A DNA stretch of 64,000 bases from Gnetum montanum (Eukaryota > Plantae > Gnetophyta), in NCBI GenBank assembly GCA_015680685.1, contig MNCI01002192.1, positions 189,237 through 253,236 on the forward strand, read 5' to 3'. Position numbers and translations under genes: made by a program. Of this stretch, positions 10,275 to 42,892 are shown one piece after another. How positions within the stretch are numbered: the stretch's first letter is position 1; every line of letters starts with the position of its first letter. The notes under the pieces were generated by a model that saw only the letters and a program-made list of their open reading frames with translations, searched no databases and was not told where the DNA came from.

Positions 10275-12195
10275 TTCTTCATTCATGATCACATAGTCTA
10301 CTTCTCTAAGGTTCACAAAAATTGGGATATTCCTCTACTTGATATTAGTCCATGGTAAGGGCTCTTGTGAAAGGGTAGTAGTAGTTGCCTCCCCTGAAGT
10401 AGTAGTAATCTAGGAAGCTAAGGAATTAGACAACACTAGAGAGATTCTAAATAACTTAAAGGCCTTCTCTATGTTGATTTCTTGCTTGAACATCTTCAAA
10501 TTTTGGCTCTTTATAGCCTCCTCTTACAACCACTTGTAATAACTCTCCCTTTCTACCTTCTATTTGTGCTTGTGGTTTTTCCATGTCTTGCCCCACTCAA
10601 GGACCCAAGCAAAGTAGTCACATTAGTCTCTAATATTACGAACTAACAAGTCCACCTAGATATCATTTTTTGCATTTCTCCTAGGTAGAGAAACCTTGCC
10701 ATGGATGGGATTTTAGTAGTGTGGTCATTCTATATTCTTAGTGCACAAGGAGTATCTATAGGCTACATAAGCCTCTACAAACTTCTTATGGTTTCTAAGG
10801 TCTCTAATCTCCTCTCCCTACTACTTGGTTTCTTTCTCCAATGCTACAACTGTTTCTCATAGGAATTTCTTTGAATGTTTGTATTCCCACGAAATCTTGC
10901 CACATGAGAGGGCACATTCAATGGCACTCTTCTATAACCTTTGTGGAACATTTTCTACATCAAGCAGTAGTGTAAGAAACTTATCAAACTTAATGTTATG
11001 TTTAGGGTCCCATCCAACCTTAGACACTATAAACAACATAACAAAAATTTACATATAAAGACAATAAGTAAACAACAAAAATAATAAAAAATACTTTAAA
11101 CAACTAAGACCATGTAACCATAAAACGTAAAAAGACATTATATATATATATATATATATATACAAAAAAATATATAAAGAATAAAGTAATTTAGGTAAAG
11201 CATGCTATTGTTCTTAGCAACATCGAGAGCAATATGTTGCAATTGATCAATCATGTCTTCAACTGTACCATGCATAAACTCAATCTTATTAGGAACTTTA
11301 GCCCATTGTTTCATATAAAATGTGGAGTTGGATGCCTCTAGAAGGGGTTCAAACACTACAACAAGTATAACCATCACCTAAAAGTTAAAATCAAATTTAA
11401 CATGAAACTACATGATACAACACATAAACTAAAATGGATAAATACCTAGAGGACCATGCAGGATGTCAATGTGAGTTTCATCATCAAATGTTGAATCTTC
11501 AAATATGGCATCCAAGGCATTCAATGCTGCATTAGATATTAGTTCATCATCCTCTTGTTGCCTTAGTGCTTTCTCTTCTTGGTGTTTTTTCTATGCCTCG
11601 ATGGCTACTTGGGTTGCCAGCTCTTGTTGTTTTCCTATAAGAATGACAAAGACAAAACATAGAACAAGTTAGCAATTTTGCCTATAAAATTAATATGATC
11701 ACATAAATGTGCACATAACATAAATAATATGAAAGAGACCATAAAAACCAAGCACAAGAAAAAATTCAATTAGAACATACCTAAAAAATGTGATGTGCTT
11801 AGTTGATCCTAAGGGATATCTTCTTTTTCACTAGCTGCTCAATAATAGTGACCATCTCTTCAACTAGTGGTTAATTCAACTTTTCTTTGGTTGCACCATT
11901 AGCCTCAACACACAACTCCTTAGCTCTCTTAACACTTCCACAAGAAATATGGAGCTCAATCCCTATGTTGTTAGGGAAAGAACAATGTACACCACTCAAT
12001 TTCTTAGTGGTAATAGACAATGATTCTCCAATATCTTCAACTAGTGGGTTTTGAACCTACATGTCTAAAATAATATGTTTCACCCAATGTTTGGAAAATT
12101 AGAATGGATCATGGAATATCCATTTTCCATCCTTATTGACCACTGGGAATTCTAAGAACCTCCTTAAATATGCTACAAAAAATGAAAAATATAAG
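10275..12195 (+). repeat. 1.92-kb direct repeat, left copy (flank of the PLE chain)
   Basis: Collinear with 26244-28162 from TTCTTCATTCATG to AAAATAYAAG. Confidence 0.92.
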
Positions 12196-13380
12196 AGGGT
12201 TCCATTTCCTATTGCGAACATCATGGAGTTGATGAAGCCATTCAAGAAGATGCTATCTAGAGAAAGCAAGAACAAGGTTGAAGCAATGATCTAAGAAGTG
12301 AAAAGGATATCTTTGAGCACAAAGTCATCAAAAAAGCTATTGTCGAATCTGCTAAAGATCATCGAGGCAAGATTCTCTTATGAGGTATCACTTGATCTCA
12401 ACAACAATGAAGGATTTCTTTTGATGGCAAGGATGCCAAGAGGAGAAAGGGATGTATTGATAAGCATTTAAGGATTTTTGATAACACTAAGTAGAAAGAA
12501 TACAAGTGTTAACAAAGTTAGAACCCTTAAAGAAGGAAACATCCAAAATGTTTGCTAAGGAGCTAGATACTGAGGGAGTAATATTGATGGTAGGATAGAA
12601 AGAACCATACTAATTAAGTAACTAGAAGAGGGAATCCTATGAACTACTCAAAATGCCAAAGGCATCATCAATGTACCTTTTGAATTAGAGAAGATGCTTG
12701 GATCCTAGTGTAGAGAAAATTTGTTTCTCTAAGTGATAAAGAAATAGGCAAGCGTAGACAATGGCAAAGTTGCTACCCATGGTGGTGCCTTGAATCTATT
12801 TGTAGAAGACCCCGTTGAACTTCAAAAAATATTCTTGAAGGACCAAAGAGGCCAACTCCATGATAGCATTAATGTAGAAGACCTACAAATTAAAATCACT
12901 ATCCTGAAAATATGACTCAACCATAGCTTGAAGAGTAGCAAGGCCATGATCCGTGGGAATGCTAGGGTAGAGAGATTCTACATCAAAAGTGAAAAGAAAC
13001 ACATTTTGACGTAGGAATCTTGAGTGAAGGTCATGTATCAAGGTTCATGAGTCTGAAAGGTGGTATGGTTGAGAACAAAGGATGGGGAAAAGCAAGTAGT
13101 GGAGCAGGCAAAAGGTAGGTTCAAGCAAATAGTCTGAATACGAGTAGATAGGATGACTAATGAGAACAGGTTTATGGAGTTTAGGGATTAGGTAAAAAGT
13201 ACAAGGTTTGAAAGCAAAGACTTTGAAAAGGGGTCTCTTAAAATTAGAAAAAACTTGTGTAAAATGGTTGATCATAGAGAGAAGCTGATGACAAAGGAGT
13301 TCCCATGGAATGACGTCCACTTGTTGGTAGACATCAGTATTTGACAATTGTCTAATGACCTCTTGATAGTACCAAGTGGA
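12196..13380 (-). pseudogene. PLE RT fragment (5'- and 3'-truncated)
   Basis: ORF 13045-13401 KPCTFYLIPKLHKP; continues through YIDD to the thumb region. Confidence 0.88.
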
Positions 13381-13397
13381 TTGGATGACTATTGGAT

Positions 13398-13687
13398 GCA
13401 CATGACCATTATTCTATTTAACATGTATGTTTGCACATGACTATTACTCTATTTAACACACATGTTTGCACATGATCGTTACTCTATTTAATGCATATGT
13501 TTGCATATCACCATTACTCTATTTAATGCACATGTTTGTACATGACTGTTGCTTTATTTAATGCACATGTTTGCACATGACTATTACTCTACTTAATGCA
13601 CTTGTTTGCACATGACCATTACTCTATTAAATGCACATGTTTGCACATGACTGTTACTCTATTTAATTCACATGTTTACACATGACC
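13398..13687 (-). repeat. 35-bp tandem array (~8 units)
   Basis: Reverse complement of AATAGAGTAACGGTCATGTGCAAACATGTGCATTA. Confidence 0.95.
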
Positions 13688-13698
13688 ACATTGCCTAA

Positions 13699-13739
13699 AC
13701 ACACTGATGAGGGGTGTAAGTCCTAGAAATGTTTTGTGT
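13699..13739 (+). ncRNA. Degenerate minimal type I hammerhead ribozyme (variant a)
   Basis: ACACA-CTGATGA-GGGG-TGTAAG-TCCTA-GAAA-TGTTT-TGTGT. Both catalytic boxes are present and stem I pairs ACACA/TGTGT. Confidence 0.72.
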
Positions 13740-13904
13740 AACAACATACATTGTGCAATGCTATAAGCTTTTTATTACTTTCTATTTGATAGTTTTTCTA
13801 TTTTACAGTTCCTATAGTATTTCTCTCAGCCCTCCTATTTTATTACTTCCTAGATTTCATCAATAATTTTAAGTTTCCTAAAATTTTAAGTTTCTTACTT
13901 GCTT

Positions 13905-14703
13905 TTCCCATTTTTAAACTTCCAAAAGATCAAAGCATTGTTATCCATATTGCCAAAAAAATCTAGGTATTTGTGTCCTAGACTCCTCTTGGTACTATCA
14001 AGAGGCCATTAGACAATTGTTAGATATTAATGTCTACCAACAAGTGAACGTCGTTCCATGGGAATTCCTTCGTCATTGACTTCTTTCTATGATCAATCAT
14101 TTTCCACATATTTTTTCTAATTTTAATGAACCCCTTTCAAAATTCATAGCTTTCAAACCTTGTACTTTCTACTTGATCCCTAAACACCATAAACCTATTC
14201 TCGTTGGTCATCCTATCTGCTCCTATTCAGGCTATTTGCTTGAACTTGCTTCCCACCCACTCCACTACCTACTTTTCCCCATCCTTTATTCTCAACCATA
14301 CCATCTTTCAGACTTATCAGCCTTGATTCATGAGCTTCACTCCAGAGTCCTACCTCAAAATGTATTTCTTTTCATTTTTGATATAGAATCTCTCTACCTA
14401 GCATTCCCACGGATCATGGCCTTGCTATTCTTCAAGCTATGGTTGAGTCATATTTTTAGGATAACCCTTTTGATTTGTAGGTCTTCTACATCAATGCCAT
14501 CATGGAGTTAGCCTCTTTGGTCATTCAAGAACATTTTTTGAAGTTCAACGAGCTCTTCTACAAACAGATTCTAGGCGCCACCATGGGTAGGAACTTTGTC
14601 GTTGTCTATGCTTGCCTATTTTTATGTTACCTAGAGAAACAAATTTTCTCTACACCAAGCTCTGAGCATCTTCTCTACTTCAAAAGGTAAATTGATGATG
14701 CCC
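13905..14703 (+). pseudogene. PLE RT internal fragment ending just after the IDD motif
   Basis: ORFs 14089-14511 and 14502-14690. Confidence 0.88.
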
Positions 14704-16829
14704 TCTTGGTAGACATTAGTATTTGACAATTATTTGATGACCTCTTGATAGTACCAAGAGGAGTCTAAGACATAGATACCCAAATTTTTGTCAATAGTAT
14801 GAATAAACATGCTTCGATCTTTCTGAAGTTTAAAAAGGGTTCCAAGAAGATGTCAAGGAAGTAGAGGCCTCCAAGAAAAATCTAAAGAAGAAAGAGAAGC
14901 CTCAAGAGATGAGAGACAATCGAGAATAGATGTCTGTAGGTGTTGGTTGAAGTTGCTGGTGGGTAGATTCCACTTGCTTTGAAAACATAACTTCATCTTA
15001 GCAAGATGAATTTCTTCCAAAAAATGTGAAGAAGAAAGGTTTACCTCTTTTAGTTTCTCTTTGAAGAAGTTGCATAACCAAAGAAGTCTAGCAAAGGTAG
15101 CGAACTCCTTGAGAACTACACCACCATCTATGGGAAGAGGACAAGGAATGAATTTAAGGCCAAAACCTAGAACTTTGATTTCATTAGGAGAAAGATTCCT
15201 AAATGAAAAATTGTGAATGGCGAAGTTAGAAATGTGATTTTCTACTTCATGAATGAACTTATGTTCATGAAAGATTCCTAAATGAAGTAGAAAATCACCA
15301 CTTCCTAGAATTCTTACGTCCATCTTCTCTTCCAACATAAGGAGAGAAGATGGACGTAAGAATTCTAGGAAATGGTTGGGAGCCAAAATTTTAACCACAT
15401 GCGGGAGAGCAGTTTTTGAACTTTCTTCAGGTAGATATCTGGCACGATGTTCTTGGCCGTGGTGTAGATGGTGTAGATTTGTGTTGCTAATGATAGAAAC
15501 CTTGGTGTGATTCCAATCCAGATGGGCTAGAGGCACTGGAGGTGGAGTTCTTGTTCAGCTGTTAGTGGGGCCTAACCTAGGAAGGAGTTTTGCGAGCTAG
15601 GCACCAGCCATTTAAAGAAGAATTGACCTGAGGTCATTTTGGCTATGAGTGTCCCTAATGCTTGTGATTTTTCTTCTTTTTCTTATTCTGATTCTATGGA
15701 GGGTGATAGTGGGGTTGAGTGGGCTTGTTGGGGAGGATGCCAAAATCCTTCAACCATTCACCAATTTTTTTGAAACTGGAGTCCCATTCTTGTTGAATGG
15801 TTTCTTTGTAGACCTCCTTGATAGTAGGACCAGGGTCAAGGCGATGTACTTCAGTCTCCACAACTGAAGTAGCATACTTTTAGGTCTCTTTTGCTTTCTT
15901 CCAAGCTTTTTCATGGACCAAGAATGGAAGTCATTTATTTAGAAAAGCTTACTCAAGTTTTCTGGAGTATATTTGCAAAATATCATTGATGTATGAATTG
16001 GGTCGATTGATAGCTAAGATGCATTCAACCAACTTTGAATAAGCTTCATGTGAGAAAGAATCCAATTTTTTAATATTGTCTTTGGTGGATGCCATTTTTG
16101 CGTGAAGATAGCGTCTTGGTGTTTTAGATTGTGTTCTTTTTCGAGAGCAACAAAATCTACATAAAAGATGGTATCTCCTTTAGGCGTGGAAGCTTTAAGG
16201 CTTGGAACAGTAATGCGTAGACTTTGAACCAACAAATGTTTTGCGTGTAGTTTCTCAAGACACTCTATATTGTGGCAGGAGTGCTTTGCATTATGTAAGT
16301 TCTTATAGAGTCACTTAGCAATAGAGTTTATCATCTCCAACAACACTTCAGGAATTTGTAGTGAATCTCCATTGGCAGTAGATGAAGAAGATGTTTTGAC
16401 ATCATTCAACTGTTACCAAAGAGAATTACATTCAAACTAAAGTGAGTTGATGCAGGCCTAAGAATTTGCACGTTGTTGATGACAAAGACTTAATTTAGCA
16501 TTAGCTGTAAGATGTGCGTGTTCTACACAAAGCTCATGAATGTGATTAATGAAGTTTTCATAGATCACTTCTGTCTATTCTGAAGGCTTGGAATGGAAAT
16601 CTAGTTTAAGATATTCCAAGGAAGCATATGGAAGTCCATGAACTAGATAGTTGAAACAACACAAACCTAATTGTAGATTCATGTCATGCTCCGTATAAGA
16701 ATCTAGTAGACAAGATATTTTTCATGAAGAGCTAGCAGAGGGAACATTCTTTGAGCATTGCATGGAATTAGTAGTGTGGGGTTGGTTCCTTGAAGAAGAG
16801 GTAGAAGGTTGCCAATCTGCAGAGCTCAT
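14704..16829 (-). pseudogene. PLE ORF1 plus N-terminus of the RT ORF
   Basis: Starts MSSADWQPSTSSSRNQP at 16829 and is an inverted homolog of 23082-25170. Includes NFSFRNLSPNEIKVLGFGLKFIP, a PLE RT N-terminal motif. Confidence 0.82.
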
Positions 16830-16974
16830 TTTCTTTAGGCAGCAAAATAGATGAGAAATTTAGGGTACTTAAAATTTTAAGTAAGATCTCATGCGATTGA
16901 AGAAAAGACAAAAAGATAGAAGGACCAAAAGGAACAAATTAAGAGAAAGGCTCAAACATAGAAGCAAAGCTACT

Positions 16975-17016
16975 ACATAAAATATTTTAAAGAAATATCA
17001 CCCCTCTTCAGTATGT
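16975..17016 (-). ncRNA. Degenerate hammerhead ribozyme (variant b)
   Basis: ACATA-CTGAAGA-GGGG-TGATAT-TTCTT-TAAAA-TATTT-TATGT. The GAAA box has decayed. Confidence 0.5.
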
Positions 17017-17090
17017 TTATAGAAGCAATCCTTGAAATGTGGTTTAAGCAACAAGTATAGGATGAGAATTTATAGAGTCCCAACTTCAAA

Positions 17091-17357
17091 AATAGAGTAA
17101 CGGTCATGTGCAAACATGTGCATTAAATAGAGTAACAATCAAGTGCAAACTTGCGCATTAAATAAAATAACATTCATGTGTAAACATGTGCATTAAATAG
17201 AGTAACGGTCATGTGCCAACATGTGCATTAAATAGAGTAACGATCATGTCCAAACATGTTCATTAAATAGAGTAATGGTCATGTGCAAACATGTGCATTA
17301 AATAGAGTAATGGTCATGTGCAAACATACGTGTTAAATAGAATAATGGTCATGTGCA
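17091..17357 (+). repeat. 35-bp tandem array (~7.6 units)
   Basis: Unit starts at 17091, 17126, 17161, 17196, 17231, 17266, 17301 and 17336. Confidence 0.95.
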
Positions 17358-17373
17358 TCCAATAGTCATCCAA

Positions 17374-18557
17374 TCCTCTTGGTACTATCAAGAGGCCATC
17401 AAACAATTTTTAGATACTAATATTTACCAACAAGTGGACATCGTTCCATGGGAACTCCTTCATTGTCGGCTTCTCTCTATGATCAACCATTTTCCACAAG
17501 TTTTTGTTAATTTTAAGAGACCCCTTTTGACAGTCTTGGCTTTCAAACCTTGTACTTTCTACATGATTCCTAAACTCCATAACCTATTCTCATTAGTTGT
17601 CCTATCTACTCCTATTCAACCTATTTGCTTGAACCTACCTCTTGCCTGCTCCACTGCCTACTTTTCTCTATTCTTTGTTCTTAACCATATCATTTTTTAG
17701 ACTCATTAGCCTTGATCCATGACCTTTAGTCTAGAGTCTGACCTCAAAATGTGTTTCTTTTCACTTTTGATGTAGAATCTCTCTCCCCTACCATTCCCAC
17801 AAATCATGGCCTTGCTACTCTTCGAGCTATGGTTGAGTCATATTTTTAGGATAACCATTTTGATTTGTAGGTCTGCTACATTAATGCCATCATGGAGCTA
17901 GCCTCTTTGATCTTTCAAGAATATTTTTTAGAGTTCAATGGGGTCTTCTACAAATAGATTCAAGGCACCACCATGGGTAGCAACTTTTTTGTTGCCTATG
18001 CTTACCTATTTCTTTATCACTTAGAGAAACAAATTTTCTCTATACTAGGCTACAAACATCTTCTCTACTTCAAAAGGTACATTGATGATGCTTTTGGCAT
18101 TTTGAGTAGTTCACAGGATTCCCTCTTCTAGTTACTTGATCGGTATGGTTCTTTCTATCCTACCATCAATATTACTCCCTCAGTATCTAGCTCCTTAGCA
18201 AACATTCTGGATGTTTCCTTCTTCAAGGGTTCTAACTTTCTTAACACTAGTATTCTTTCTACTTAGTGTTATAAAAAATCCTTAAATTCTTATCAATACA
18301 TTCCTTTCTCCTCTTGGCATCCTCGTCATTAGAAGAAAGCCTTCATTGTTGCTGAGCTCAAATGATACCTCATTAAATAATCTTGCCTCGGTGATCTTCA
18401 ACAGATTCGACAATAAATTTTTTGATGACTTTGTGCTAAAGGATATCCTTCTCACTTTTTGGCTCATTACTTCAACCTTGTTCTTGCTTTGTCTAGATAG
18501 CATCGTCTTGAATGGTTTCATCAATGCTATGATGTTCGCAATAGGAAATGGAACCCT
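17374..18557 (+). pseudogene. PLE RT fragment, inverted copy of 12196-13380
   Basis: Same 5' and 3' junctions as 12196-13380. Confidence 0.88.
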
Positions 18558-19306
18558 CTTATATTTTGCATTTTTTGTAGCATATATAAGGAGGTTCTTA
18601 GAATTCCTTGTGGTCAAGAAGGATGGAAAATGGATATTCCATGATCCATCCTAATTTTCCAAACCTTGGGTGAAACATATTTTTCTAGACATGTAGGTTC
18701 AAAACCCACCAATCGAAGATATTGGGGAATCATTGTCTATTACCACTAAGAAATTGAGTGGTGTACATTGTTCTTTCCCTAACAACATGGGGATTGAGCT
18801 CCATATTTCTTATGGAAGTGTTAAGAGGGCTAAGGAGTTGTGTGTTGAGGCTAATGGTTCAACCATAGCAATTTGAAGCAACCACTAGTTGAAGAGATGG
18901 TTACTATTGTTGAGCAGCTAGTGAAAAAGAAGATATCCCTTAAGATCAACTAAGCAGATCACATTTTTTACGTATGTTCTAATTGAATTTTTTCTTATGC
19001 TTGGTTTTTATGATATCTTGCATATTATTTATGTTATGTGCACATTTATGTCATCATATTAATTCTAGAGGCAAAATTTCTAACTTGTTCTATATTTTGT
19101 CTTTGTTATTCTTATAGGAAAACAACAAGAACTAGTAACCCAAGTAGATGTAGAGCCATAGAGAAAACACCAAGAAGAGAAGGCACTAAGGCAACAAGAG
19201 GATGATGAACTAATAGCTAATGAAACATTGAATTCCTTGGATGCCATATTTGAAGATTCAATGTTTGATGATGAAACTCACATTGACATCCTACATGGTC
19301 CTCCAG
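18558..19306 (-). repeat. Inverted partial copy of the target flank (11446-12195) embedded in the PLE chain
   Basis: Reverse complement of the flank, including one intron, attached to the same PLE junction. Confidence 0.9.
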
Positions 19307-20042
19307 GAATCACACCAAGGTTGTTGTTGTTAGCAATGAAACTCTACACCATCTACGCCATAGCCAAGAACATCGCTATAGACTTCTTCCTAAAGAAAGT
19401 TCAAAAATAACTCTCCCACACATGGTTGAACTTCTAGCTCGTAACCATTTCTTAGAATTCTTATGCTCATCTTCTCTTCCAGTGTAAGTTCATTCACAAA
19501 GTAGAAAATTACATTTCTAACTTCGCCAATCACAATTTTTCATTTAGGAGTCTTTCTTCTAATGAAATTAAAGTTTTTGTTTTTGGCCTTAAATTCATTC
19601 CTTGTCCTCTTCCCATGGACCATGGTGCGGTTCTCAAGGAGTTCACAACCTTTGCTAGATTTCTTTGGTTACACAACTTCTTTAAAGACAAACTAAAAGA
19701 GGCAAACCTTTCTTATTCACCTTTTTTGGAAGCAATTCATCTTACTAAGATGAAGTTATGTTTTCGAAGCAAGTGGAATGTGCCTACCAATAGCTTCAAC
19801 CAACACCTAGAGACATCTTTTCTTTATTGTCTCTCATCTCTTGAGGCTACTCTTTCTTATTTAGATTTTTCTTGGAGACCTCTGCTTCCTCTACATCTTC
19901 TTGGAGCCCTTTTTAAACTCTAAAAAGATCGAAGCATTGTTATTTATCCTGTTCACAAAAATTTTTGTATCTGTGTCTTGGACTCCTCTTGGTACTATTA
20001 AGAGGTCATCAAAAAATTGTCAAATATTGATGTCTACCAAGA
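19307..20042 (+). pseudogene. PLE RT N-terminal fragment
   Basis: Inverted copy of ~14704-15512; includes ORF 19615-19923. Confidence 0.85.
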
Positions 20043-20840
20043 GGGCATCATAAATGTACCTTTTGAAGTAGAGAAGATGCTTGAAGCTTGGTGTAAAGAA
20101 AATTTGTTTCTCTAACATAGAAGTAGGAGAGCGTAGATAATGACAAAGTTGTGACCCATGGTGGTGCCTCAAAATCTATTTGTAGAAGAGCCCATTGAAC
20201 TCCAAGAAATGTTATTGAACGACCAAAGAGGCTAGCTCCATGATGGAATTGATGTAGAAGGCCTGCAAATCAAAAGGGTTATCCTAAAAATATGACTCAA
20301 CCATAGCTCAAAGAGTAGCAAGGCCATGATCCATGAGAATGCTAAGGTAGAGAGATTCTATATTAATAGTGAAAAGAAATACATTTTGAGGTTGCACTCT
20401 AGAGTGGAGGTCATGAATCAAGGCCAATGAGTTTGAAAGATGGTATGGTTGAGAATAAAGGATGGGGAAAAGCAGGTAGTGGAGAAGGTGGGAGGCAAGT
20501 TCAAGAAAATAGCCTAAATAGGAGTAGATAGTACGACCAATGAGAACAGGTTTATGGTGTTTAAGGATTAGGTAGAAAGTACAAGGTTTGAAAGCTATGA
20601 ATTTCAAAAGGGATTCCTTAAAATTAGAAAAAACCTATGTAAAATGATTGATCACAGAGAGAAGCCAATGATGAAAGAATTCCCATGGAACGAAGTTCAC
20701 TTGTTGGTAGTCGTTAGTATCTAACAATTGTTTGATAGCCTCTTGATAGTACTAAGAGAAGTCTAGGACACAGATACCTAGATTTTTGTCAGCAGGACAA
20801 ATAATAATGCTTTGATCTTTTTGGAGTTTAAAAATGGGAA
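20043..20840 (-). pseudogene. PLE RT internal fragment
   Basis: Inverted copy of 13905-14703; includes ORF 20308-20607. Confidence 0.85.
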
Positions 20841-20990
20841 AAGCTAGGAAACTTAAAATTTTTTAAGAAATCTTATGTGTTAAGGAAAAGAACAAGAGGG
20901 CTGAGAGAAATACTATAGGAACTATAAAACAGACAAACTGTTAAATAAAAAGTAATAAAAAGCTCATAGTAGTGTACAAAGTATGTTGTT

Positions 20991-21032
20991 AAACAAAACA
21001 TTTTTTGGGACTTACACCTCTCATCAGTGTGT
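20991..21032 (-). ncRNA. Degenerate hammerhead ribozyme (variant a)
   Basis: ACACA-CTGATGA-GAGG-TGTAAG-TCCC-AAAAAA-TGTTT-TGTTT; a copy of 13699-13739. Confidence 0.55.
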
Positions 21033-21045
21033 TTAGGCAATGTAG

Positions 21046-21358
21046 TCATGTGCATTAAATAGAATAACGGTCATGTGCAAACATGTGCATTAATTAGAGT
21101 AATGGTCATGTCCAAACATGTGCATTAAATAGAGTAATGGTCATGTGCAAACATGTGCATTAAATAGAGTAATGATCATGTGCAAAATGTCCATTAAATA
21201 GAGTAAGGATCATGTGCAAATATGTGCATTAAATGGATTAATGATCATGTGCAAACATTTGCATTAAATATAATAATAGTCATGTGAAAACATGTGCATT
21301 AAATAAAGTAACAGTCATGTGCAAACATGTGCATTAAATAGAATAACAGTCATGTGCA
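21046..21358 (+). repeat. 35-bp tandem array (~9 units)
   Basis: Same unit as the other two arrays. Confidence 0.95.
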
Positions 21359-21373
21359 TCCAATAGTCATCCA

Positions 21374-22796
21374 ATCCTCTTGGTACTATCAATAGGTCAT
21401 CAGACAATTGTTAGATACTAACATTTACAAATAAGTGGACGTCATTCCATGGGAATTTCTTCGTCGTCAACTTCTCTATATGATCAACTATTTTCCATAG
21501 GTTTTCTTTAATTTTAAAGGATGCTTTTTGAAAGTCTCAACTTTCAAACCTTGTACCTTCTACTTGATCTCTAAAATCCGCATAAACCTATTCTCATTGG
21601 TCATCCTATCTACTCCTATTCAAGCTATTTGCTTGAACCTGCCTCTCGCCTACTCCACTACCTACTTTCCCCATCCTTTGTTCTCAACCATACCATCTTT
21701 TAGACTTGTTAGCCTTGATCATGGCCTCCACTCCAGAGTACTACCTCAAACTATGTTTATTTTCACTTTTGATGTAGAATCTCTTTACCCTAGCATTCCC
21801 ATGGATCATGGCCTTGCTACCTTTCAAGCTATGGTTAAGTCATATTTTGAGAATAACCTTTTCGATTTGTGGGACTTCTACATCAATGCCATCAGGGAGC
21901 TTGCCTCTTTAGTCCTTCAAGAACATTTCTTGGAGTTCAATGGGGTATTCTACAAATAGATTCAAGGCATCGCCATGGGTAGAAATTTTGCCATTGTCTA
22001 CGCTTGCCTGTTTCTATGTTACTTAGAGAAAGAAATTTTCTCTACACCAAGCTTCGAGCATCTTCTCTACTTCAAAAGGTACATTGATGATGCCTTTAGC
22101 ATTTGGAGCGATTCATAGGATTCCCTCTTCTAGTCACTTTATTGGTATGGTTCATTATATCCTATCATCAATATCACTCCCTTAGTATCCAGCTCTTCAA
22201 CAAACATTTTTGATGTTTCCTTCTTCAAGGGTTTTAACTTTGTTAATACTAGTATTCTTTCTACTAAGTGTTATAAAAAATCCTTAAATGCTTATCAATA
22301 CATTCTTTTCTCCTCTTAGAATCCTCAGCATTAGAAGAAAGCCTCCATTAATTCTGAGCTCAAACGATACCTCATCAGAGAATTTTGCCTCAGTGATCTT
22401 CAATAGATTTGACAACAGCTCTTTTGATGACTTCATGCTTGAGAATATCCTTCTCGCTTCTTAACTCATTACTTCAACCTTGTCCATACATTTTCCAGAT
22501 GACATCTTCTTGAATGGCTTCATCAATGCCATAATGTTCGCAATAGGAAATGGACACCTCTTGTCTTAAAATTGGATTTTAGTCCTTTCACTAAATCCTT
22601 GAACTTGATGGTCCTCCTAAACCCCATACATGTTGGGCTCCACAAAAAAGATTGAATTCTCAAAAAAATCATTTTTGATGTTATTTCATGTTGAAGGAAT
22701 CCTAGAAAACTTTATTCTTTTCTCATCAAGAAAAAATTCAAGAGCAGTAGTCCCATGCCCATATTAGCTCGAACAAGTGACGTCCATTCTATTTAA
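21374..22796 (+). pseudogene. PLE RT, 5'-truncated but with its native C-terminus
   Basis: FTFDVESLYPSIP, YIDD, then TPLVLKLDFSPF...RNPRKLYSFLIKKKF...DVHSI-stop (TAA 22794-22796). No endonuclease domain follows. Confidence 0.85.
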
Positions 22797-22902
22797 TGCA
22801 CATGATTGCACATGACCGTTACTCTATTTTTGAAGTTAGGACTCTATAAATTCTTATTATACCCTTATTGCTCAAACCACATTTTAAGCATTGCTTCTAT
22901 AA

Positions 22903-22944
22903 ACATACTGATGAGAGGTGAGATTCCCTAAAATTTTTTTATGT
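22903..22944 (+). ncRNA. Degenerate hammerhead ribozyme (variant b) in the pseudo-LTR / 5' UTR
   Basis: ACATA-CTGATGA-GAGG-TGAGAT-TCCC-TAAAA-TTTTTT-TATGT, lying between the RT stop of the upstream copy and the ORF1 ATG. Confidence 0.58.
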
Positions 22945-23081
22945 AGTAGCTTTGCTTCTATGTTTGAGCATTTCTCTTTATTTGTTCGTTTTTATCCTTT
23001 TATCTTTTCTTCAGCCACACAAGATCTTACTTAAAATTTTAAGTATTCTAAATTTTTCCTCTATCTCACTACTTGAAGAAA

Positions 23082-24362
23082 ATGAGCTCTACAAATTGGC
23101 AACCTTCTACCTCTTCTTCAAGGGACCAACCCCACACTGCTAATCCCATGCAGTTCCTAGGTAATGTTTCCCCTGCTAGCTCTTCATAGAAAAGATCTTG
23201 TCTACTGGATTCTTCTACGAAGCATGACATGAATCTATAATTAGGTTTGTGTCATTCCAACTGTCTAGTTCATGAGCATCCATATGCTTCCTTGGAATAT
23301 CTTGAACCAGATTTTCATTCCAAGCCTTTAGAATAGATGGAAGAGATCCGCACAGACTTTTTTTGTCGTGATGATGAGCTTTGTGCAGAACATGCACGTC
23401 CTACAATTCAGCTTCATGCAGAATATGCACATCTTATTGATGCTCTCCATGCTAAATTAAGTCTTTTCCATCAACAAATTGTAGATTCTCAAGCTCACAT
23501 CAACTCACTTTAGTCTGAATGTGATTCTCTTTAGCAATAGTTAAATGATGCCAAAACATCATCTTCTCTTGCTACCAATGGAGATTCACTACAAATTCCT
23601 AAAGTGTTGTTGGAGATGACCAACTTTGCTATTAAGGAACTCTACAAGCACTTTCACAATGTAGAGCGCTCCATCATAACAAAGAGTGTCTTGAGAAACT
23701 ACATGCAAAAAAGCTATTATTTCATAGTTTATGCATTGCTGCTCTAGGCCTTAAAACTTTCGCCCCTGAAGGAGATGCCATCCTTTAAGCAGATTTTGTT
23801 GCTATCCAAAAAGAGCACAATCCAAAACTTTAGGAAGCTTATCTTCATGCTGAAATGACATCCTCTGAAGCTAATCTTAAAAAATTAGATTTTTTTCTAG
23901 CATGAAGCTTTTCAAAATTTGGTTAAATGTATCTTAGCTATCAATCAACCCACTTCATACATTAATGCTCTTTTGCATATCTATTTCAAAAAACTTAAGA
24001 AAGCTTTTCTAAATGAATGGATTTAGTTTTAGATCCATGCATAAGCACAAAAGAAAGTAGAAGAGACTTGAAAGAATGCTGCTTTGGTTGTAGAGACTAA
24101 AGCAGATCGCTTTGATCCTAGTCCTACCATCAAAGAGGTCTATAAAGAAACCATTCAACAAGAATGGGACTCCACTTTCAAAAAATTTGGTGAATGGTTG
24201 AAGGATCATGACATCCTCCTTGCTAAACCTGCTTAACCTCACTGTCGTCCTCTGTAGAATCAGAATAAGAAAAAGAAGCAGAATTGCAAGTAGCAGGGTC
24301 ACAAACACCAGTGACACTCATAGCCAAAACAACCTAAGGTCGATTCTTCTTTAAACGACTAG
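23082..24362 (+). pseudogene. PLE ORF1 (~420 codons, basic NKKKKQ tail), disrupted
   Basis: Starts MSSTNWQPSTSSSRDQP; homologous to 16829-15600 (-); ends TCT TTA AAC GAC TAG. Confidence 0.7.
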
Positions 24363-24396
24363 TGCCCAGCCTACAAAACTCCTTCCCAGGCTGGGT
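24350..24396 (+). promoter_or_regulatory. Putative -1 programmed ribosomal frameshift signal
   Basis: T TTA AAC in the ORF1 frame, a 7-nt spacer, then stem GCCCAGCCT/AGGCTGGGT. The -1 frame equals the frame of RT ORF 24548-24889. Confidence 0.75.
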
Positions 24397-26140
24397 CCCA
24401 CAAATAGCTGAATAAGAAGAACTCCACCTCCAATGCCTTTGGGCCATCTAGCTCAGAATCACACCAAGGTTTCCATCATTAGCAATGCAACCCTACACCA
24501 TAGACTTCTTCTCGAAGAAATTTCAAAAGCCACCCTCCTACACATAGTTGAACTTTTGGATCCCAGCCATTACCTATAATTCTTATGCTTGTATTCTCTT
24601 TGAGCGTAAGTTAGTTTGTGAAGTAGAAAATCACATTTCTAACTTCACCATTCAAAATTTTTCATCTAGGAGTCTTTTTCTTGATGAAATCAAAGTTCTT
24701 GATTTTGGCCTCAAATTCATTTCTCATCCTCTTCCCATGGATCATGGTGTGGTTCTTAGGGATTTCACTACCTTTGCTAGAATTCTTCGATTACACAACT
24801 TATTTAAAGACAAACTAGAAGAGGTAAACCTTTCTTCTTCACCTTTTTTGAAAGTAATTCATCTTGCTAAGATAGAGCTACATTTTTGAAGCAAGTGGAA
24901 TTTCCCTGCCAGTAGCTTCAACCAACACCTGGAGACATCTATTCTTGATTATCTCTCGTCTTTGGAGGATACTCTTTCTTCTTCAGATTTTACTTGCAGG
25001 CCTATGCTTCCTCGATGTCTTCTTGGAGCCCTTTTTAAACTCTAGAAATATTGAAGCATTGTTATTCATCTTGCTGATAAAAATATGGGTTTCTGTGTCT
25101 TGGACTCTTCTTGGTACTATCCATAGGCCATTAGATAATTGTCAAATACTGATGTGTACCAACAAGTGAGCATCGTTACATGGGAATTCCTTCATCATCA
25201 GCTTCTCTCTATGATCAACTATTTTTCATAGGTTTTCTCTAATTTTAAGGGATCCATTTTGAAAGTACCTTGTGCTTTCTACCTGATCCCTAAACTTCAT
25301 AAACCTATTCTCGTTGGTCATCATATTTGCTCCTATTTAGGCTATTTACATGAACCACCCTCCCACCTACTCCACTACCTACTTTATCCCATACTTTGTT
25401 CTCAACCATATCATCTTTCAGACTTGTTAGCCTTGATCTATGACCTCCACTCCAAAGTCCTACCTCAAAATGTGTTTTTTTTTTTACTTTTGATGTAGAA
25501 TCTCTCTACCATAGCATTCCCATGGATTATGGCCTTGCTACTTTTTGAGCTATGGTTAAGTCATATTTTTAGGGTAACCCTTTTAATTTGCAGATCTTCT
25601 ACATCAATTCCATCATGGAGCTAGCCTCTCTAGTCCTTCAAGAACATTTCTTGGAGTTCAATGGGGTCTTCTGCAAATAGATTTGAGGCATCACCATAGG
25701 TAGCAACTTTGTCATTGTCTACGCTTGCCTATTTCTATGTCACTTAGAGAAACAAATTTTCTCTACCCTAAGCCCTAAGCATCTTCTCTACTTCAAAAGG
25801 TATATTGATGATTCCTTTGGTATTTGGAGGGATTCACAAGATTCCCTCTTCTAGTTACTTTATCGGTATGGTTCTTTCTATCCTACCATCAATATTATTC
25901 CCTCAATATCATAGCTCTTCAACAAACATTTTTGATGTTTCCTTCAGTATCTAACTTTGTTAACACTAGTATTCTTTCTACTAAGTGTTATAAAAAATCC
26001 TTGAATACTTATGAATACATCCCTTTCTCCTCTTGGCATCCTCACCATCAAAAGAAAGCCTTCATTGTTTCTAAGCTCAAATCATACATCATCATAGAAT
26101 CCTACCTTAGTGATCTTCAGTAGATTCAACAATAGTTATT
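24350..26140 (+). pseudogene. PLE RT ORF2, 3'-truncated and disrupted
   Basis: ORFs 24548-24889, 25259-25498 and 25824-26123 carry PLE RT motifs. Confidence 0.88.
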
Positions 26141-26144
26141 TTGA

Positions 26145-26248
26145 GTACCCAAAAACTTAAAATTTTAAGTACCAAAAATTTTAAATTTTCTAAAAATTTG
26201 AAGTACCCAAAAATTAAAATTTTAAGTACCAAAAATTTTAAGTTTCTT
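26145..26248 (+). repeat. Reiterated AAAATTTTAAGT(ACC/TTC) junction filler
   Basis: About five imperfect copies of a motif also present in the PLE UTRs (13865-13895, 16866-16882, 23029-23046). Confidence 0.75.
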
Positions 26249-28162
26249 CATTCATGTTCACCTAGTCTACTTCCTTAAGGTTGAAAACAATTGGGATATT
26301 CCTCTACTTGATATTAGTCCATGCTAAAGGCTCTTGTGAAAGGGTAGTAGTAGTTGCCTCTGTTGAAGTAGTAGTAATCTAAGGAGCTAAGAAATCAAAC
26401 ACCACTACAGAGATTTTAAATAGCTTAAAGGCCTTCTTTGTGTTGATTTCTTGCATGAACATCTTCAACTTTTGGCTCTTTATATCATCCTCTTGTAACC
26501 ACTTATAATAACTCTCATTTTATACCTTCTATTTGTGCTTGTGTTTTTTTTCATGTATTGCCCCCCTTAAGGACCCAAGCATAGTAGTCTTCTTAGTCTT
26601 TGATCTTACGAACTAACAAGTCCATCTAGATATCATTTTTTGCATTTCTCCTAGGTAGATCAACCTTGCTATGGATGGGATTCTTGTAGTGTGGTCATTC
26701 TATCTTCTTAGTTCACAAGGAGTCTCTATTGTCTACACAAGCCTCTACAAACTTCTTATGGTTTCTAAGGTCTCTAATCTCCTCTGCCTACTACTTGGTT
26801 TCTTTCTCCAATGCTACAACTCTCTCTCATAGGAATTTCTTTGAATGTTGGTATTCCCATGAAGTCTTGCCACATGAGAGGGCACATTCAATGGAACACT
26901 TGTATAACCTTTGTGGAACATTTTCTACTTCAAGCGGTAGTGCAAGCAAGTTATCAAGATCAATGTTATGTTCAGGGTCCCATCCAACCTTAGACATTGT
27001 AAGCAACATAACAAAATTTACATATAAAGACAATAAGTAAACAACAGAAATAATAAAAAATACTTTAAGCAACTAAGATCATGTAACCATAAAACATTAA
27101 AAGCCATAAAATATATATATAACAAAATATATAAAAATATATAAAGAATAAAGTAATTTAGGCAAAGCATTCTATTGTTCTTACCAACATCAAGAGTAAT
27201 ATGTTGCAACTGATCAATCATATCTTCAACCATACCATGCATAAAGTCAATCTTATTAGGAACCTCATCCCATGGTTTCATACAAAATATGGAGTTGGAT
27301 GCCTCTAGAAAGGGTTCAAACACTACAACAAGTATAACCATAAACTAAAAATTAAAATCAAATTTAACATGAAACTACATGATACAACACATAAACTAAA
27401 ATGCATAAATACCTGGAGGACCATGCAGGATGTCAATGTGAGTTTCATCATCAAATTTTGAATCTTCAAATATGGTATCCAAGGCATTCAATGCTTCAGT
27501 AGGTATTAGTTCATCATCCTCTTGTTGCCTTAGTGCATTCTCTTCTTGGTGTTTTCTCTATGCCTCTACAGCTACTTGGGTTGCCAGTTCTTGTTGTTTT
27601 CCTATAAGAATGACAAAGAAAAAATATAGAAAAAATTAGCAATTTTGCCTATATAATTAACATGATGACATAAATGTGCACATAACATAAAGAATATGCA
27701 AGATACCATAAAAACCAAGCATAAGAAAATATTGAATTAGAACATACCTAAAAAATTTGACGTGCTTAGTTGATCCTAAGGGATATCTTCTTTTTCACTA
27801 GCTACTCAACAACAATAACCATCTCTTCAATTAGTGGTTGCTTCCACTTTGCTTTGGTTGAACCATTAGCCTCAACACACAACTCCTTAGCTCTCTTAAC
27901 ACTTCCACAAGAAATATGGAGCTCAATTCCCATGTTGTTAGGAAAAGAACAATGTACACCACTCAATTTCTTAGTGGTAATAGATAATGATTCCTCAATA
28001 TCTTCGACTGGTGGGTTTTGAACCTACATGTCTAGAATAATATGTTTCACCCAAGGTTTGGAAAATTAGGATGGATCATGGAATATCCATTTTCCATCCT
28101 TCTTGACCACTGGGAATTCTAAGAACCTCCTTAGATATGCTACTAGAAATGCAAAATACAAG
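26244..28162 (+). repeat. 1.92-kb direct repeat, right copy
   Basis: Collinear with 10275-12195; continues into the uninterrupted exon at 28163. Confidence 0.92.
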
Positions 28163-31100
28163 TGGCATATTGTCTCAAGGTTGTTTCAGAATTTTGGATC
28201 TCATCCTATAGCCCAGAGACCTATTGAGTAGCCTAGTTAACCTTAGCACCTTCGATGAGGACCTTCTTCATGGTCCAAGCTTGTTGAATGCTAAGGATCT
28301 TCTTTTGCAATATCAACATGGGTAACGACCTAGAGCAAAACAATGGATACATCTCATTAACTTTTATTATGTAGCACTAGTCTAGAGGCAACCCATTGCT
28401 ACCACGATGAATGCTAAGCCATTCTTTGATCTCCTCTCTATGATCTATCCCTTTCCCTACCTTTATGGAAACCTTCATGTCATCAAAAGGTATGCCAAAT
28501 AAGACATTAAACATGGATTAATTGATTACCAAGATGACATGCACACTATTAACATGAGAGATGAATTTCTTAACTCCTTTTTCAAAAGAGTTAATGACAT
28601 TTACCATCTCTACAATAGGCATGGATGGGCTAGGAATCATAATTAGATTGAGCAAACCTGCATTGACAATCTTTTCCTAGATCTCTCTAGGTGCTCTACC
28701 AGTTGATCACTCTTGTGCTAAATCTACTTTGCCCCACTTAAGAATTAGTGTCTCCTTTTCACCTCCCAAGGTGATTATGGAAATAGTAGATTTAGGCATA
28801 AGATCTAAAATAGAACATGAACAACCAATTATCCTTTAGAATAAGCACACCACACAAGTAAAGTATATATATAACAAACATAGTAAAAAATCAAAATTAA
28901 ATTTTTAACCACATAGTTAAAACCCATTAAAAAATTAAGGCCTAAACAACTAAAAAACAAATAGAGAACATTAACATTAATAATCAAAAAATTAAAAAAA
29001 ATAAAAACTATTAAATTTTCTTATCTAGTTTCAGTAATGTAGGGGGTCCTAAAAGCCACAAGTGCATGTATGCCTAAGTCAGAAAGGCCCCACTAAATAG
29101 GAACAATCCTATTCACCAAACACTTGTGGTAGACTTTATAGTAACATGAAGTGTATATTCTGAAGTCATCCCTTAGTTGCTACAACACCATGAGTCTCAC
29201 ATGGGACCCTTGTGTAAAAACCTCCAATGATGTGTGTGCCAAGGGTAGAACTTGGTCACTCTTGATTAATTCTTCATTGTGCACTTTATACCTACACCAT
29301 AAAAATTCAACAAAAAAGTCTTAGGATAAAATAGTCTAATGAAAATAACAAGTGAAAAAAAAACATAGAATGGCACTTATGCTTGTAACTAGTATATAGT
29401 GCCAGAAGGATTTTGAAATAAAGTGTGGACTTGATGGCCTATCATTAATTTGTTGTTCACATTATACAAAATAAACTCAGGCATATCCCAAATTTGGGAT
29501 AACTTGTGTGTTCCTAGTGTGCACATATCATCGTGATGGTCACATTCCATACAAGTGGTAGGGCAATCTACCATGAACTTGACAATGAGACTAGTAGGAT
29601 GGGGTAGCAAAGTCTTTTCAATAACAACTACAGTGTCAAAGGCCAAGTGTAATCGTAAGATTATACTAAAGTTCTTCAATAGGAATGCTAAGAACTCTTT
29701 AGCCCTAGGCCTAAACCAAGGAGAACTATGATCCAAGACCATGTTAGGTAGCAAACTATTTGGTCCTAGGATATTTATGTAGCATAGAATCCCAACCATT
29801 TCAATTACCATTAGGATGGATTTCAAAAAGGCTCTACATAACCAAACAAAACCATTAAAACATAAAAGATTAGTAAACAAAAATTAACAAAAAATAAACA
29901 AAAAATGATGAATATAATTTCAATTTTCAAATATTAAATTCAAAATAAATTAAAGGCAAAATAATAAAATACAAAACTTCAAACTATCAATATTTTCACT
30001 TAAAAACTATGTAGAATATCAACACAAAACATTTATGAAAATCACATAGTTAAATAATGCATTAGAAATTTTTACATTAAGCATTAAAATATGAGAAAAA
30101 TACTATAATAAGTTTAAAACCATGATTAAAAATGTGTTAATGGTTGTGAAAATTTCAACTTAAGTTTGAAAAAATGTTGACTAGAAATCCTAGTTTATAG
30201 TGAAAAAACTATAGGAAAGTTGGATAAAAATTTCAAGAAGATTAGATAGATATTGAGAACCAAAATAAGCCATGTAAATGACCATTAGAGATCTTAAAAT
30301 ATCCAATAAAACATAATAAGTATAACAACACTACTAGTGCAAGCTGGGAAGCTTGCATGCTCAGCAAGTAAAACTACAACTGTATAGGGTAGTTCATGTG
30401 AACAATAATTTGAAAACAAAATTACCAAAAATTATTTTTCTAAGTTTAGGAAATGTAAACATACATAATTTAAGAAAACTTCTATACCAAAATTCCAATA
30501 ATGGGCATAGAAAAATTCACATTGTCGCTTGGAATCACTTTGAATTTTTTTCAAAAAATCTGGTTTGTAGTGAAACCTCTAGGAAAATTATGAGAAACTT
30601 TTCAAAAATTCTAAAACCTATTTAGAACCCTACTACACTATCCCATAAACCCTCAAAAGACTAGGATGTTCATAGAAAAATAGCCAAAGTATGCCAATGC
30701 TACTAGTCTTCGAAGGCCAAAAATAGCATTGTGCTTTGGTCTATGGAAAAAATCATAAGAAATTAACTGTAGCTCCAAAAATAGTGATTCAACCATTGAT
30801 GAGACCATTAAACACCATAGAATAACCTTATGGCATGAAAAACTAGAACTTTTATATCTAACCCTAATAAAATATTGTAAAGTTTAAACATTCTTTGGTA
30901 ACAAATTGTCAAAAACACATAGGATGGGCCAAAAAAATTCATAATTTTATAAAAAGAGTCCCTAAGGTTAAAATCACAACATGAGTTCATCAAAATAACC
31001 TAGATGCTACATTTAACACATATAAAACCAAATTTTCCCAAACACAAACCTAGGCATTACAAAATGCCTTCATACTACAGTAAAAATTGGTTGAAAATAG

Positions 31101-31859
31101 TTAATGAAGGGTACTTGGCAATCATGTTGGAAGAGCTTTTCTAATGGATGGTAATGGGAGGTGGGTGATTCCTCTACTAGTAGCCTTTTCCTCCTCTGGT
31201 GCTAAGTTCCTTTTGATTCCTCCTCTCCTCTTTAACATCTTGCAAGGATGAGATGAAATCTTTAGTTTCTTTATAACTACGCTACCTTGGTGATGGGAAA
31301 TAGAAAAAAATACATTGACTATGGATAGAAATATGGTAAAAAATGGCTGAAAATATTGTTTAACAACCTCTACTCCAAGAAAAAATCTAGAAAAAATAGT
31401 TTTCATAAAAATTCCAATGATGAAGCCCTCCATATACGTATGCATTAGTACGATAACCTTCACATCCAAAATGCCTACACAACATCGAGTGAACTCAATG
31501 GTCACATATGAAAAGTGATAAATATGCTAGGTTTACTTGGTTTTGAGTTTCAAATAATCTTTTAACCTTGGGTAGGCCCCATAGGGTTCCTCCTAAATAA
31601 ACCACAAAAAATCCCAATACAATGGGATTTATAATTTTAAACAAAAAATACACTAGGGATTAATGCCCAAGTAAACATTGAAAACTTGGAATGGATTCCA
31701 AGATCTATCCATGGTGAAGGTACATCTTCTAGCTATCCATGATTGATCCATTGTGGTTAATAAATTCCCATCTCAAACTAGAAATCCTAGACATTACCAT
31801 AAGAGGACTCTAGTTTCTAATAATGGTCAAAAAAACCCCTAAAACAAAGAATTCCAAGC

Positions 31860-33242: not shown

Positions 33243-33884
33243 ATAAGTGATAGCACATTTATTCAAAATGCTTTATTTTTATCTTCAAATTGGCTCAAAA
33301 TGATCTCCCTGAGTGCCCAAGCATTTTTATTAATCTTGGTGCCTCCCACCATGGTCCGCTAAGGCATAAAATTGGAAAAATGTGACCTTGATTGACCAAT
33401 ATTCACAATGTTTTACCACATGTTACCTACCTTTATTGGTTTGGCCTTATTCCACTATGTTTTAGCTTGATCTAACCTTGTTTCACATTATTGTCTATCA
33501 TTTCCATATCATTTGGTGTCATCTGATCTCATTTTCATCATTTCTATAACATTTGGCTCTATCCCACCATAATTTTCTATCATTTGACATTATTTTAACT
33601 TAGTTGACTTGATTTGACATCAACTAATGTCATACTTTAATTAGACCTTATTCAAACTTTCTTGACATCATTTTATGGGGTTTGACCATCATTTGGCCTT
33701 TGTTTCAAATTATTTGATTTAACCTACCCCTTATAGCCTTTGTTGACCATGTTTGAACCTTTTTTAACCCTTTATATATTGTGTTTTGACAAATATAGGC
33801 ATTATTACACAATTTTTTACATTGACACCATTTAATAATTTTATCACATAGGTGTTACTCAATGTGCTTATGGAAGATTAGATT

Positions 33885-42880: not shown

Positions 42881-42892
42881 TTTCTGCCCCCT
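42881..42892 (-). promoter_or_regulatory. Polypurine tract of C
   Basis: AGGGGGCAGAAA on the minus strand abutting the LTR. Confidence 0.85.

What the first reader, a model, noticed from the sequence alone, without database searches (positions are those of the whole stretch)
22796..26140. Reconstructable endonuclease-less, two-ORF PLE in a land plant
Overlapping copies give a complete unit of ~3.8 kb: repeat unit, hammerhead, ORF1, frameshift, then RT ending without GIY-YIG (C-terminus at 22560-22796), arranged head-to-tail. Conifer Dryad PLEs carry GIY-YIG. Endonuclease-less Athena/Coprina-type elements are known mainly at telomeres and from few plants. This is likely a poorly described lineage, found here at an interstitial site.
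Basis: partly seen in the sequence, partly recalled or inferred. Interest (0 to 1): 0.75.

Follow-up and report, generated by a model that had tools for sequence, protein, structure and literature searches.

The report
Endonuclease-less Penelope retroelement in a gymnosperm
This is a long-dead cluster of copies of a telomerase-related jumping gene that has no DNA-cutting enzyme, in what is likely a conifer- or ginkgo-type plant; such elements are already reported from conifers, but this 14-kb cluster sits between two copies of a 1.9-kb piece of host DNA, which suggests it was likely pasted into a chromosome break rather than onto a chromosome end.

Summary
The anatomy is real. Overlapping decayed copies give a ~3.7-4.0 kb Penelope-like unit: helical ORF1 (23082-24482), a -1 frameshift signal (slippery TTTAAAC at 24350 plus hairpin), an RT ending at 22796 with no GIY-YIG, then a 35-bp repeat and a broken hammerhead. 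The RT nests among Ginkgo, Cryptomeria and Picea proteins (98/96) inside a clade with Selaginella (100/99). Intact Cryptomeria RTs stop where the window's conserved C-terminus ends, so the missing endonuclease is a family trait. Intact relatives share the layout (23 of 28 loci examined), and 3 of 56 loci run into (CCCTAAA)n tracts. Novelty is lower than claimed: a review already lists EN(-) PLEs in pine, spruce and Selaginella, and two-ORF EN(-) PLEs are a described type. It is flanked by a 1.92-kb direct duplication of host sequence of similar age, and ends in 5-6 repeats of the element's probable 3'-terminal motif. This points to endonuclease-independent insertion at a break. The family has many diverged copies. 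Chromosomal position could not be tested.

The parts
10275..12193 (+). Left copy of a 1.92-kb direct duplication of flanking non-PLE sequence; continues leftwards into unique flank
   Evidence: 91% to 26244-28165; junction sequences printed
12194..13380 (-). PLE RT fragment (core to thumb), inverted; left junction with about 7 nt of microhomology to the flank
   Evidence: 55% identity to Ginkgo Gb_11119 over 277 aa
13397..13688 (+). 35-bp tandem array (8.3 copies), part of the element's 3' region
13695..13745 (+). Hammerhead remnant, second variant (CTGATGA and GAAA intact)
   Evidence: motif scan; weak model match E = 1.5
13908..15267 (.). RT fragment (+, 13908-14702) folded back into an RT N-terminal fragment (-, 14706-15267)
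15357..17131 (-). Second ORF1 copy with slippery site (15616), hammerhead remnant (17011) and one ACCCTAAA motif ahead of its ATG
   Evidence: 78-81% to 22788-24585
17090..19310 (.). Inverted copy of the left junction: 35-bp array (-), RT (+, 17374-18560), 757 bp of flank (-)
   Evidence: 90% to 11442-13664
19307..21358 (.). ORF1 end/RT start (+, 19307-20040), RT (-, 20044-20837), hammerhead remnant (-, 21027), 35-bp array (-, 21047-21358)
21375..22796 (+). 5'-truncated RT with YIDD motif, thumb and native C-terminus; no endonuclease follows
   Evidence: C-terminus aligns with the natural ends of intact Cryptomeria RTs
22788..22829 (+). 1.2 copies of the 35-bp unit, start of the 3' UTR / pseudo-LTR
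22903..22945 (+). Degenerate type I hammerhead (CTGATGA at 22908; G of GAAA replaced by A), predicted inactive
   Evidence: not detected
23028..23052 (+). Palindromic A/T motif, likely the element's 3' terminus; the second copy carries one ACCCTAAA here
   Evidence: two other junctions and the right end of the cluster stop at this motif; depth peak in bin 23000-23124 and a tandem form in another contig
23082..24482 (+). ORF1 pseudogene (~465 codons, two compensating indels); conserved all-helical domain, no nuclease motif
   Evidence: best hit in 64 kb of a profile of relatives' ORF1, i-E 0.0015; relatives' domain folds as long helices, pLDDT 86
24350..24395 (+). -1 ribosomal frameshift signal: slippery heptamer plus 8-bp stem-loop
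   Evidence: same layout in 23 of 28 related loci
24350..26144 (+). RT pseudogene from the frameshift to the thumb; 3' part missing
26140..26243 (+). 5-6 tandem copies of the 16-17 nt terminal motif; right junction of the cluster
26244..28165 (+). Right copy of the 1.92-kb flanking duplication; continues rightwards into unique flank

Best explanation
The finding is the right-hand end of a dead 14-kb cluster of an endonuclease-less Penelope-like retrotransposon from a land-plant lineage (host likely a gymnosperm), with ORF1, a predicted -1 ribosomal frameshift, an RT that ends without GIY-YIG and a decayed hammerhead, and the cluster was likely written into a pre-existing chromosome break in one event. 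Shown: the gene order, the frame relation, the lack of an endonuclease in the window and in intact relatives, neutral decay of all copies, and a 1.92-kb direct duplication of host DNA whose ends coincide with both ends of the cluster. Inferred: the helical ORF1 protein was made in excess and an ORF1-RT fusion by frameshifting; the hammerhead cut tandem transcripts into units; the RT, unable to nick DNA, primed from a free 3'-OH. In relatives that end is a telomere overhang. Here it was probably a resected or staggered break at 26244, where the RT copied the 3'-terminal motif several times and then jumped between templates, giving direct and inverted pieces, before repair duplicated the flank.
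For: Tree: window RTs with Ginkgo/Cryptomeria/Picea 98/96, with Selaginella 100/99, the 5 EN+ rows outside 100/99 (same picture with 118 rows). Intact 626-aa Cryptomeria RTs, 8 named members of one cluster, end at the same motif. GIY-YIG profile: 9 of 272 proteins, none in the plant clade; 4 of 56 loci, all distant ones. ORF1/-1/slippery site in 23 of 28 loci and a hammerhead core in 26 of 28 (many loci are near-duplicates); hammerhead pairs covary, 0 of 500 shuffles. Telomeric tracts at the 3' junction (L011, L035) and capping a 5' truncation (L013), 3 of 56 loci. Flank duplication 91%; transversion distance 0.042, against 0.033-0.054 among PLE pieces and 0.004 for a neighbouring LTR pair. 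No third-position excess in 15 of 15 RT pairs or in ORF1, so the pieces come from one source. 1185-2188 contigs per run lie on the unit, about 15% of them at 95% identity or more.
Against: No labelled Coprina, Athena, Chlamys or TERT sequence was in the tree. The window hammerhead is not statistically detectable. The frameshift hairpin of the second copy is no more stable than shuffles, and slippery heptamers are common here (6.4 per kb). The telomere-attached loci fall in a sister subclade without host labels, and the one gymnosperm-clade locus (L001) has no CCCTAAA after its hammerhead. Some pairs of pieces are closer (88-89%) than others (83-86%), so part of the tangle may be later DNA-level duplication. 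The break mechanism rests on one locus. Contig counts are not copy numbers and give no positions.
Confidence: 0.7

Rival explanations
1. The element attached at a telomere or a healed chromosome end, as its relatives do, and the cluster became internal later through end fusion, fold-back repair or accumulation of LTR elements; the inversions and duplication are DNA-level rearrangements.
For: Relatives join (CCCTAAA)n; one window copy has ACCCTAAA at the probable 3' end; fold-back junctions at 14704, 15300 and 20042; 6 of 8 named Cryptomeria cluster members with distinct records lie on 15-52 kb scaffolds or similar short contigs rather than chromosomes (7 short-contig rows, 1 chromosome row).
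Against: No telomeric repeats at any junction or anywhere in the window. The same host sequence continues on both sides of the cluster, which fits an insertion into it better than an end addition.
Confidence: 0.17
2. The element is EN-less but was mobilised with a nuclease supplied in trans (a Dryad GIY-YIG PLE or a LINE), so the insertion was ordinary target-primed reverse transcription with widely staggered nicks.
For: EN(+) Dryads exist in conifers (PMC9033089, PMC9370799 passages); a direct flanking duplication is what staggered nicks give; many diverged copies exist.
Against: 1.92 kb is far beyond usual target duplications (recalled); inverted copying of 757 bp of flank inside the cluster looks like break repair; Ginkgo has the lineage although Dryads are reported absent outside conifers (PMC10473749 passage).
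Confidence: 0.1
3. These are truncated remnants of an EN(+) PLE (Dryad or Chlamys type) whose nuclease has decayed beyond recognition.
For: Copies are 11-23% diverged from each other with many stops; EN detachment is common in Naiads (PMC8557442 passage).
Against: Intact relatives end at the same place with no nuclease; ORF1 matches the relatives' helical domain; no insertion-in-fingers (motif A to B 65 aa against 56-63 in the other rows); a contig from another locus (56 differences in 286 nt) runs from the RT end into the 35-bp repeat (record 24).
Confidence: 0.03

Closest known systems
EN(-) PLEs of Pinus taeda, Picea abies and Selaginella moellendorffii (Lin et al. 2016 and Gladyshev & Arkhipova 2007, seen only through PMC9033089, PMC4209133, PMC6431247)
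   Same: No endonuclease, land-plant host, hammerhead in the pseudo-LTR, two ORFs; Picea glauca KUM45112 and Selaginella XP_024523476 are in the same supported clade.
   Different: Here many diverged copies and an apparently internal 14-kb composite with a 1.92-kb flank duplication; no telomeric repeats at the junctions. Whether the published families are this clade could not be checked, as both primary papers are not held.
Coprina / Athena EN(-) PLEs (PMC8557442 introduction and Fig. 1 legend)
   Same: Coiled-coil-like ORF1, frameshift before the RT, hammerhead near the 3' end, head-to-tail arrays; relatives attach to telomeric repeats.
   Different: A simple stem-loop was found, not a demonstrated pseudoknot; only one 8-nt telomere-complementary motif in one window copy; no labelled reference in my tree.
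Dryad (Penelope/Poseidon EN+ PLEs of conifers)
   Same: PLE RT, gymnosperm-type host, dispersed copies, pseudo-LTR arrangement.
   Different: No C-terminal GIY-YIG; two ORFs; EN+ rows fall outside the clade.
PLE-X of Selaginella and Chara (EN-less Chlamys; PMC8557442 section 9)
   Same: EN-less, hammerhead-bearing, green-lineage PLEs that insert internally by an unknown route.
   Different: No insertion-in-fingers, no CxC motif seen, frameshifted helical ORF1 instead of a Cys-rich N-terminus, no rDNA target here.

Membership tests
Penelope-like elements | PLE-type RT (N-terminal motifs, DK motif, G.AMG, YIDD, thumb) | tested here: met
   Alignments; 41-55% identity to intact relatives
Penelope-like elements | Partial tandem or inverted copies forming pseudo-LTRs | tested here: met
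Penelope-like elements | Hammerhead ribozyme in the pseudo-LTR | tested here: inconclusive
   Motif and position fit at 4 window sites but no significant model match; clear in relatives
EN(-) PLEs (Coprina/Athena type) | No GIY-YIG endonuclease | tested here: met
EN(-) PLEs (Coprina/Athena type) | Coiled-coil ORF1 separated from RT by a frameshift signal | tested here: met
   pseudoknot not shown
EN(-) PLEs (Coprina/Athena type) | Reverse-complement telomeric repeats near the hammerhead, and attachment to telomeres | tested here: inconclusive
   Met in 3 of 56 related loci; in the window one 8-nt motif in one copy and no telomeric junction
Coprina clade proper | RT groups with named Coprina references | not testable with these tools
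   No labelled Coprina, Athena or TERT sequence could be fetched; the PDB search with P0007 was empty
Dryad / Penelope-Poseidon | Single ORF with C-terminal GIY-YIG | tested here: not met
Chlamys / Naiad / PLE-X | Insertion-in-fingers domain between RT motifs A and B | tested here: not met
   65 aa against 56-63 in the other rows; PMC8557442 gives about 20-40 extra residues
Chlamys / Naiad / PLE-X | N-terminal GIY-YIG and/or CxC motif | tested here: not met
   No GIY-YIG in ORF1 frames; a crude CxC scan upstream of motif A was blank in all rows

The most novel reading that the evidence does not exclude
One gymnosperm branch of the telomere-type, nuclease-free PLEs has left the telomere: it spreads through the genome by capturing chromosome breaks, and its RT starts by copying its own 16-17 nt 3'-terminal motif several times, as telomerase does with its template, leaving multi-kb composite insertions with kb-scale flank duplications. 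Intact Cryptomeria copies would make this directly testable.
Probability: 0.25. Interest if true: 0.75.

Novelty: new member of a known kind. Interest (0 to 1): 0.48.

Why it matters
EN-less PLEs are the closest mobile relatives of telomerase, and how some of them insert away from telomeres is stated as open in PMC8557442 (section 9). This locus gives a readable insertion footprint: 14 kb, a 1.92-kb duplication and a repeated terminal motif. The search also shows a land-plant clade, from Selaginella to Ginkgo, Cryptomeria and Picea, that keeps ORF1, a -1 frameshift and a hammerhead, with intact copies annotated as 'uncharacterized' host genes. My eight paper searches found no description of this anatomy for gymnosperms, but the two primary papers most likely to hold one were not available.

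Tried and rejected
No whole genome is held, so location and copy number could not be measured. Rfam found no hammerhead. My first covariance model had a mis-registered structure and was replaced; the corrected model also gave nothing significant in the window. An intron between ORF1 and RT was considered from a polypyrimidine/AG stretch and dropped, because the -1 overlap with a slippery site is conserved in relatives and no spliced joint appeared in RNA (very low coverage). RNA: 6, 0, 46 and 27 reads laid, none at 95% identity or more, from 2% and 26% of the runs; no RNA holder listed. The viral contig scan was empty. ORF1 fold searches gave only generic helical bundles: no Foldseek match at E 0.001, best Z 9.3 over 85 residues. 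ORF1 has no Pfam family, its homolog search gave 5 unnamed proteins, and the protein atlas did not complete. A first ML tree did not finish; 115 of 119 selected proteins were kept for the FastTree run, 4 dropped as too short. L010 was flagged for CCCTAAA at its end but left out of the telomere count because the repeats lie in the Pro-Asn coding region of ORF1. The 35-bp unit weakly resembles a hammerhead (E = 0.54), which is not significant. Lin et al. 2016 and Gladyshev & Arkhipova 2007 are not held; their text and supplements may already describe this clade. Two look-ups of earlier findings were empty.
Full report
Observation. Self-comparison shows that 12194-26243 is a tangle of fragments of one repeat in both orientations. 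The finding covers its right end: a 35-bp unit remnant (22788-22829), a CTGATGA core (22908), ORF1 from ATG 23082 to TAG 24482, and an RT frame that runs to 26144 and stops in the thumb. The RT C-terminus comes from the upstream copy (21375-22796). The period between the two RT copies is 3731 bp; with the longer 35-bp arrays seen elsewhere (7.7-8.9 copies) the unit is about 3.7-4.0 kb. Every copy is a pseudogene (13 stops in 364 codons).

No endonuclease. Pfam found no GIY-YIG in 12 read-through frames. A profile built from three EN+ proteins detected the domain in 9 of 272 fetched proteins (three of them its own training set) and nowhere in the tangle. Intact relatives settle the point: Cryptomeria japonica RTs of 626 aa (8 named members in a cluster of 9) and other intact proteins stop a few residues after a CWRNPRKL-type motif that aligns with the window's C-terminus. 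One contig from another locus bridges the RT end and the 35-bp repeat (record 24).

Frameshift and ORF1. In three window copies the RT frame is -1 to ORF1 and overlaps it. At 24350 lies T TTA AAC; one search printed phase 1 against a start I had mis-set by one base, and against the true ATG at 23082 the phase is 2, as required. An 8-bp stem follows (z = -3.66). The second copy has T TTA AAT with a weaker stem (z = +0.15). Slippery heptamers are common in this DNA (6.4 per kb), so the weight lies on relatives: 23 of 28 near-complete metagenome loci have ORF1 overlapping the RT in -1 with an in-phase slippery site, usually before a hairpin (many are near-duplicates). Their ORF1s share a ~200-aa domain with Cryptomeria and Ginkgo gene models; its profile gives its two best window hits in the two ORF1 copies (i-E 0.0015 and 0.018). 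The domain folds as long helices (pLDDT 86) with no specific structural match.

Hammerhead. 26 of 28 loci carry a type I core downstream of the RT, with covarying stems and a palindromic helix III (0 of 500 shuffles), as described for PLE ribozymes (PMC4209133, passages). The four window sites have the core at the matching position, but at 22908 GAAA reads AAAA and neither Rfam nor my model detects it. I call it a probable dead hammerhead.

Placement. The best hits are Ginkgo gene models (52% and 40%), then Cryptomeria and Picea glauca and Selaginella. In a 38-row ML tree the window RTs sit with Ginkgo, Cryptomeria and Picea (98/96), inside a clade with Selaginella and unlabelled plant-type loci (100/99); the five EN+ rows are outside (the 118-row FastTree agrees). 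There is no insertion-in-fingers, which excludes Chlamys and PLE-X (PMC8557442, section 9 read in full). A gymnosperm host is an inference from this tree. No named Coprina, Athena or TERT row was available.

Telomeres. Three of 56 loci run into (CCCTAAA)n. L011 and L035 do so at the 3' end; in L011 the junction falls at a short internal telomeric motif that in the tandem locus L009 lies just before the next ORF1. L013 has a 5' truncation capped by the repeat. This is the behaviour described for EN(-) PLEs (PMC6431247, passages). These loci are closest to the unlabelled sister subclade. The window has no telomeric array or junction; one copy has ACCCTAAA within a palindromic motif about 40 nt before ORF1, and that 8-mer occurs 8 times in the window by either strand, so it is weak evidence.

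The insertion. The tangle is flanked by a direct duplication, 10275-12198 and 26244-28165 (91%). The left copy continues into unique sequence on the left, the right copy on the right, and both duplication ends coincide with PLE junctions, with short microhomologies. Transversion distances are alike for the flank pair (0.042) and the PLE pieces (0.033-0.054) and ten times those of a neighbouring LTR pair (0.004); transitions are higher in PLE DNA, as expected from methyl-cytosine decay (established knowledge). No pair shows a third-position excess (15 of 15 RT pairs; ORF1). I infer one old event from one source. The right junction ends in 5-6 copies of the motif at which two internal junctions also end, which marks it as the likely RNA 3' end and the priming side. 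Against a single event, some pairs are closer than others (88-89% against 83-86%), so secondary duplication is possible.

Abundance and activity. 2188, 2034, 2122 and 1185 contigs from four DNA runs (four organism labels) lie on the unit at 80% or more, about 15% of them at 95% or more, with up to 49 contigs at one position in one run. That shows many old copies but gives neither a copy number nor positions. RNA reads were few and none matched at 95%.

What is known. PMC9033089 (passages) lists EN(-)PLEs in Pinus taeda, Picea abies and Selaginella; PMC6431247 describes two-ORF EN-less PLEs; PMC8557442 (abstract, introduction, section 9, passages, one supplement search) shows the ORF1-frameshift-RT-hammerhead plan and leaves internal insertion without a nuclease open. 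PMC10473749 and PMC9370799 (passages) treat conifer Penelope only as Dryads. Lin et al. 2016 and Gladyshev & Arkhipova 2007 were not available, so the family may already be catalogued.

Verdict. A real, dead member of a known kind. The added value is the insertion footprint and the evidence of a conserved land-plant clade with intact copies. Interest 0.48.

Noticed in passing
window 41055-52348: Gypsy-type LTR element on the minus strand with LTRs 41055-42883 and 50519-52348 (95-96% alike) and a nearly open gag-protease-extra RNase H-RT-RNase H frame. The extra RNase H before the RT recalls gymnosperm Tat lineages (recalled, not tested).
   Followed up: partly
window 1700-4700, 33681-38122, 52563-57285: Three older copies of another Gypsy-type family (65-76% alike) with the extra RNase H after RT-RNase H.
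   Followed up: partly
window 9000-12193 and 26244-31600: The flank into which the PLE cluster is inserted has decayed exon-like frames on the minus strand with no Pfam match; possibly an old DNA transposon or gene. At 19307 one of its apparent exon ends is fused to PLE sequence through a short microhomology.
   Followed up: partly
window 13397-13688, 17090-17357, 21047-21358: The 35-bp unit holds a palindrome and a short stem that loosely resemble a hammerhead scaffold (E = 0.54); not significant.
   Followed up: partly
window 13704 and 21027 versus 17011 and 22908: Two different 3' regions follow the 35-bp array, each with its own hammerhead variant; the shorter one also appears in another contig (joint 22829 to 22900).
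   Followed up: partly
window 39950-41090 and 44420-45050: Long A/T microsatellite tracts (GC 3% and 18% in the 1-kb bins) that create spurious ORFs.
   Followed up: no
P0109 (Picea glauca KUM45112): An intact EN-less PLE RT annotated as a mitochondrial-scaffold gene (ABT39_MTgene4059); possibly nuclear sequence in that scaffold.
   Followed up: no
L009-L029, ORF1: ORF1 of one subclade has Pro-Asn repeats encoded by (CCCTAA)n, a telomere-like sequence inside the coding region.
   Followed up: no
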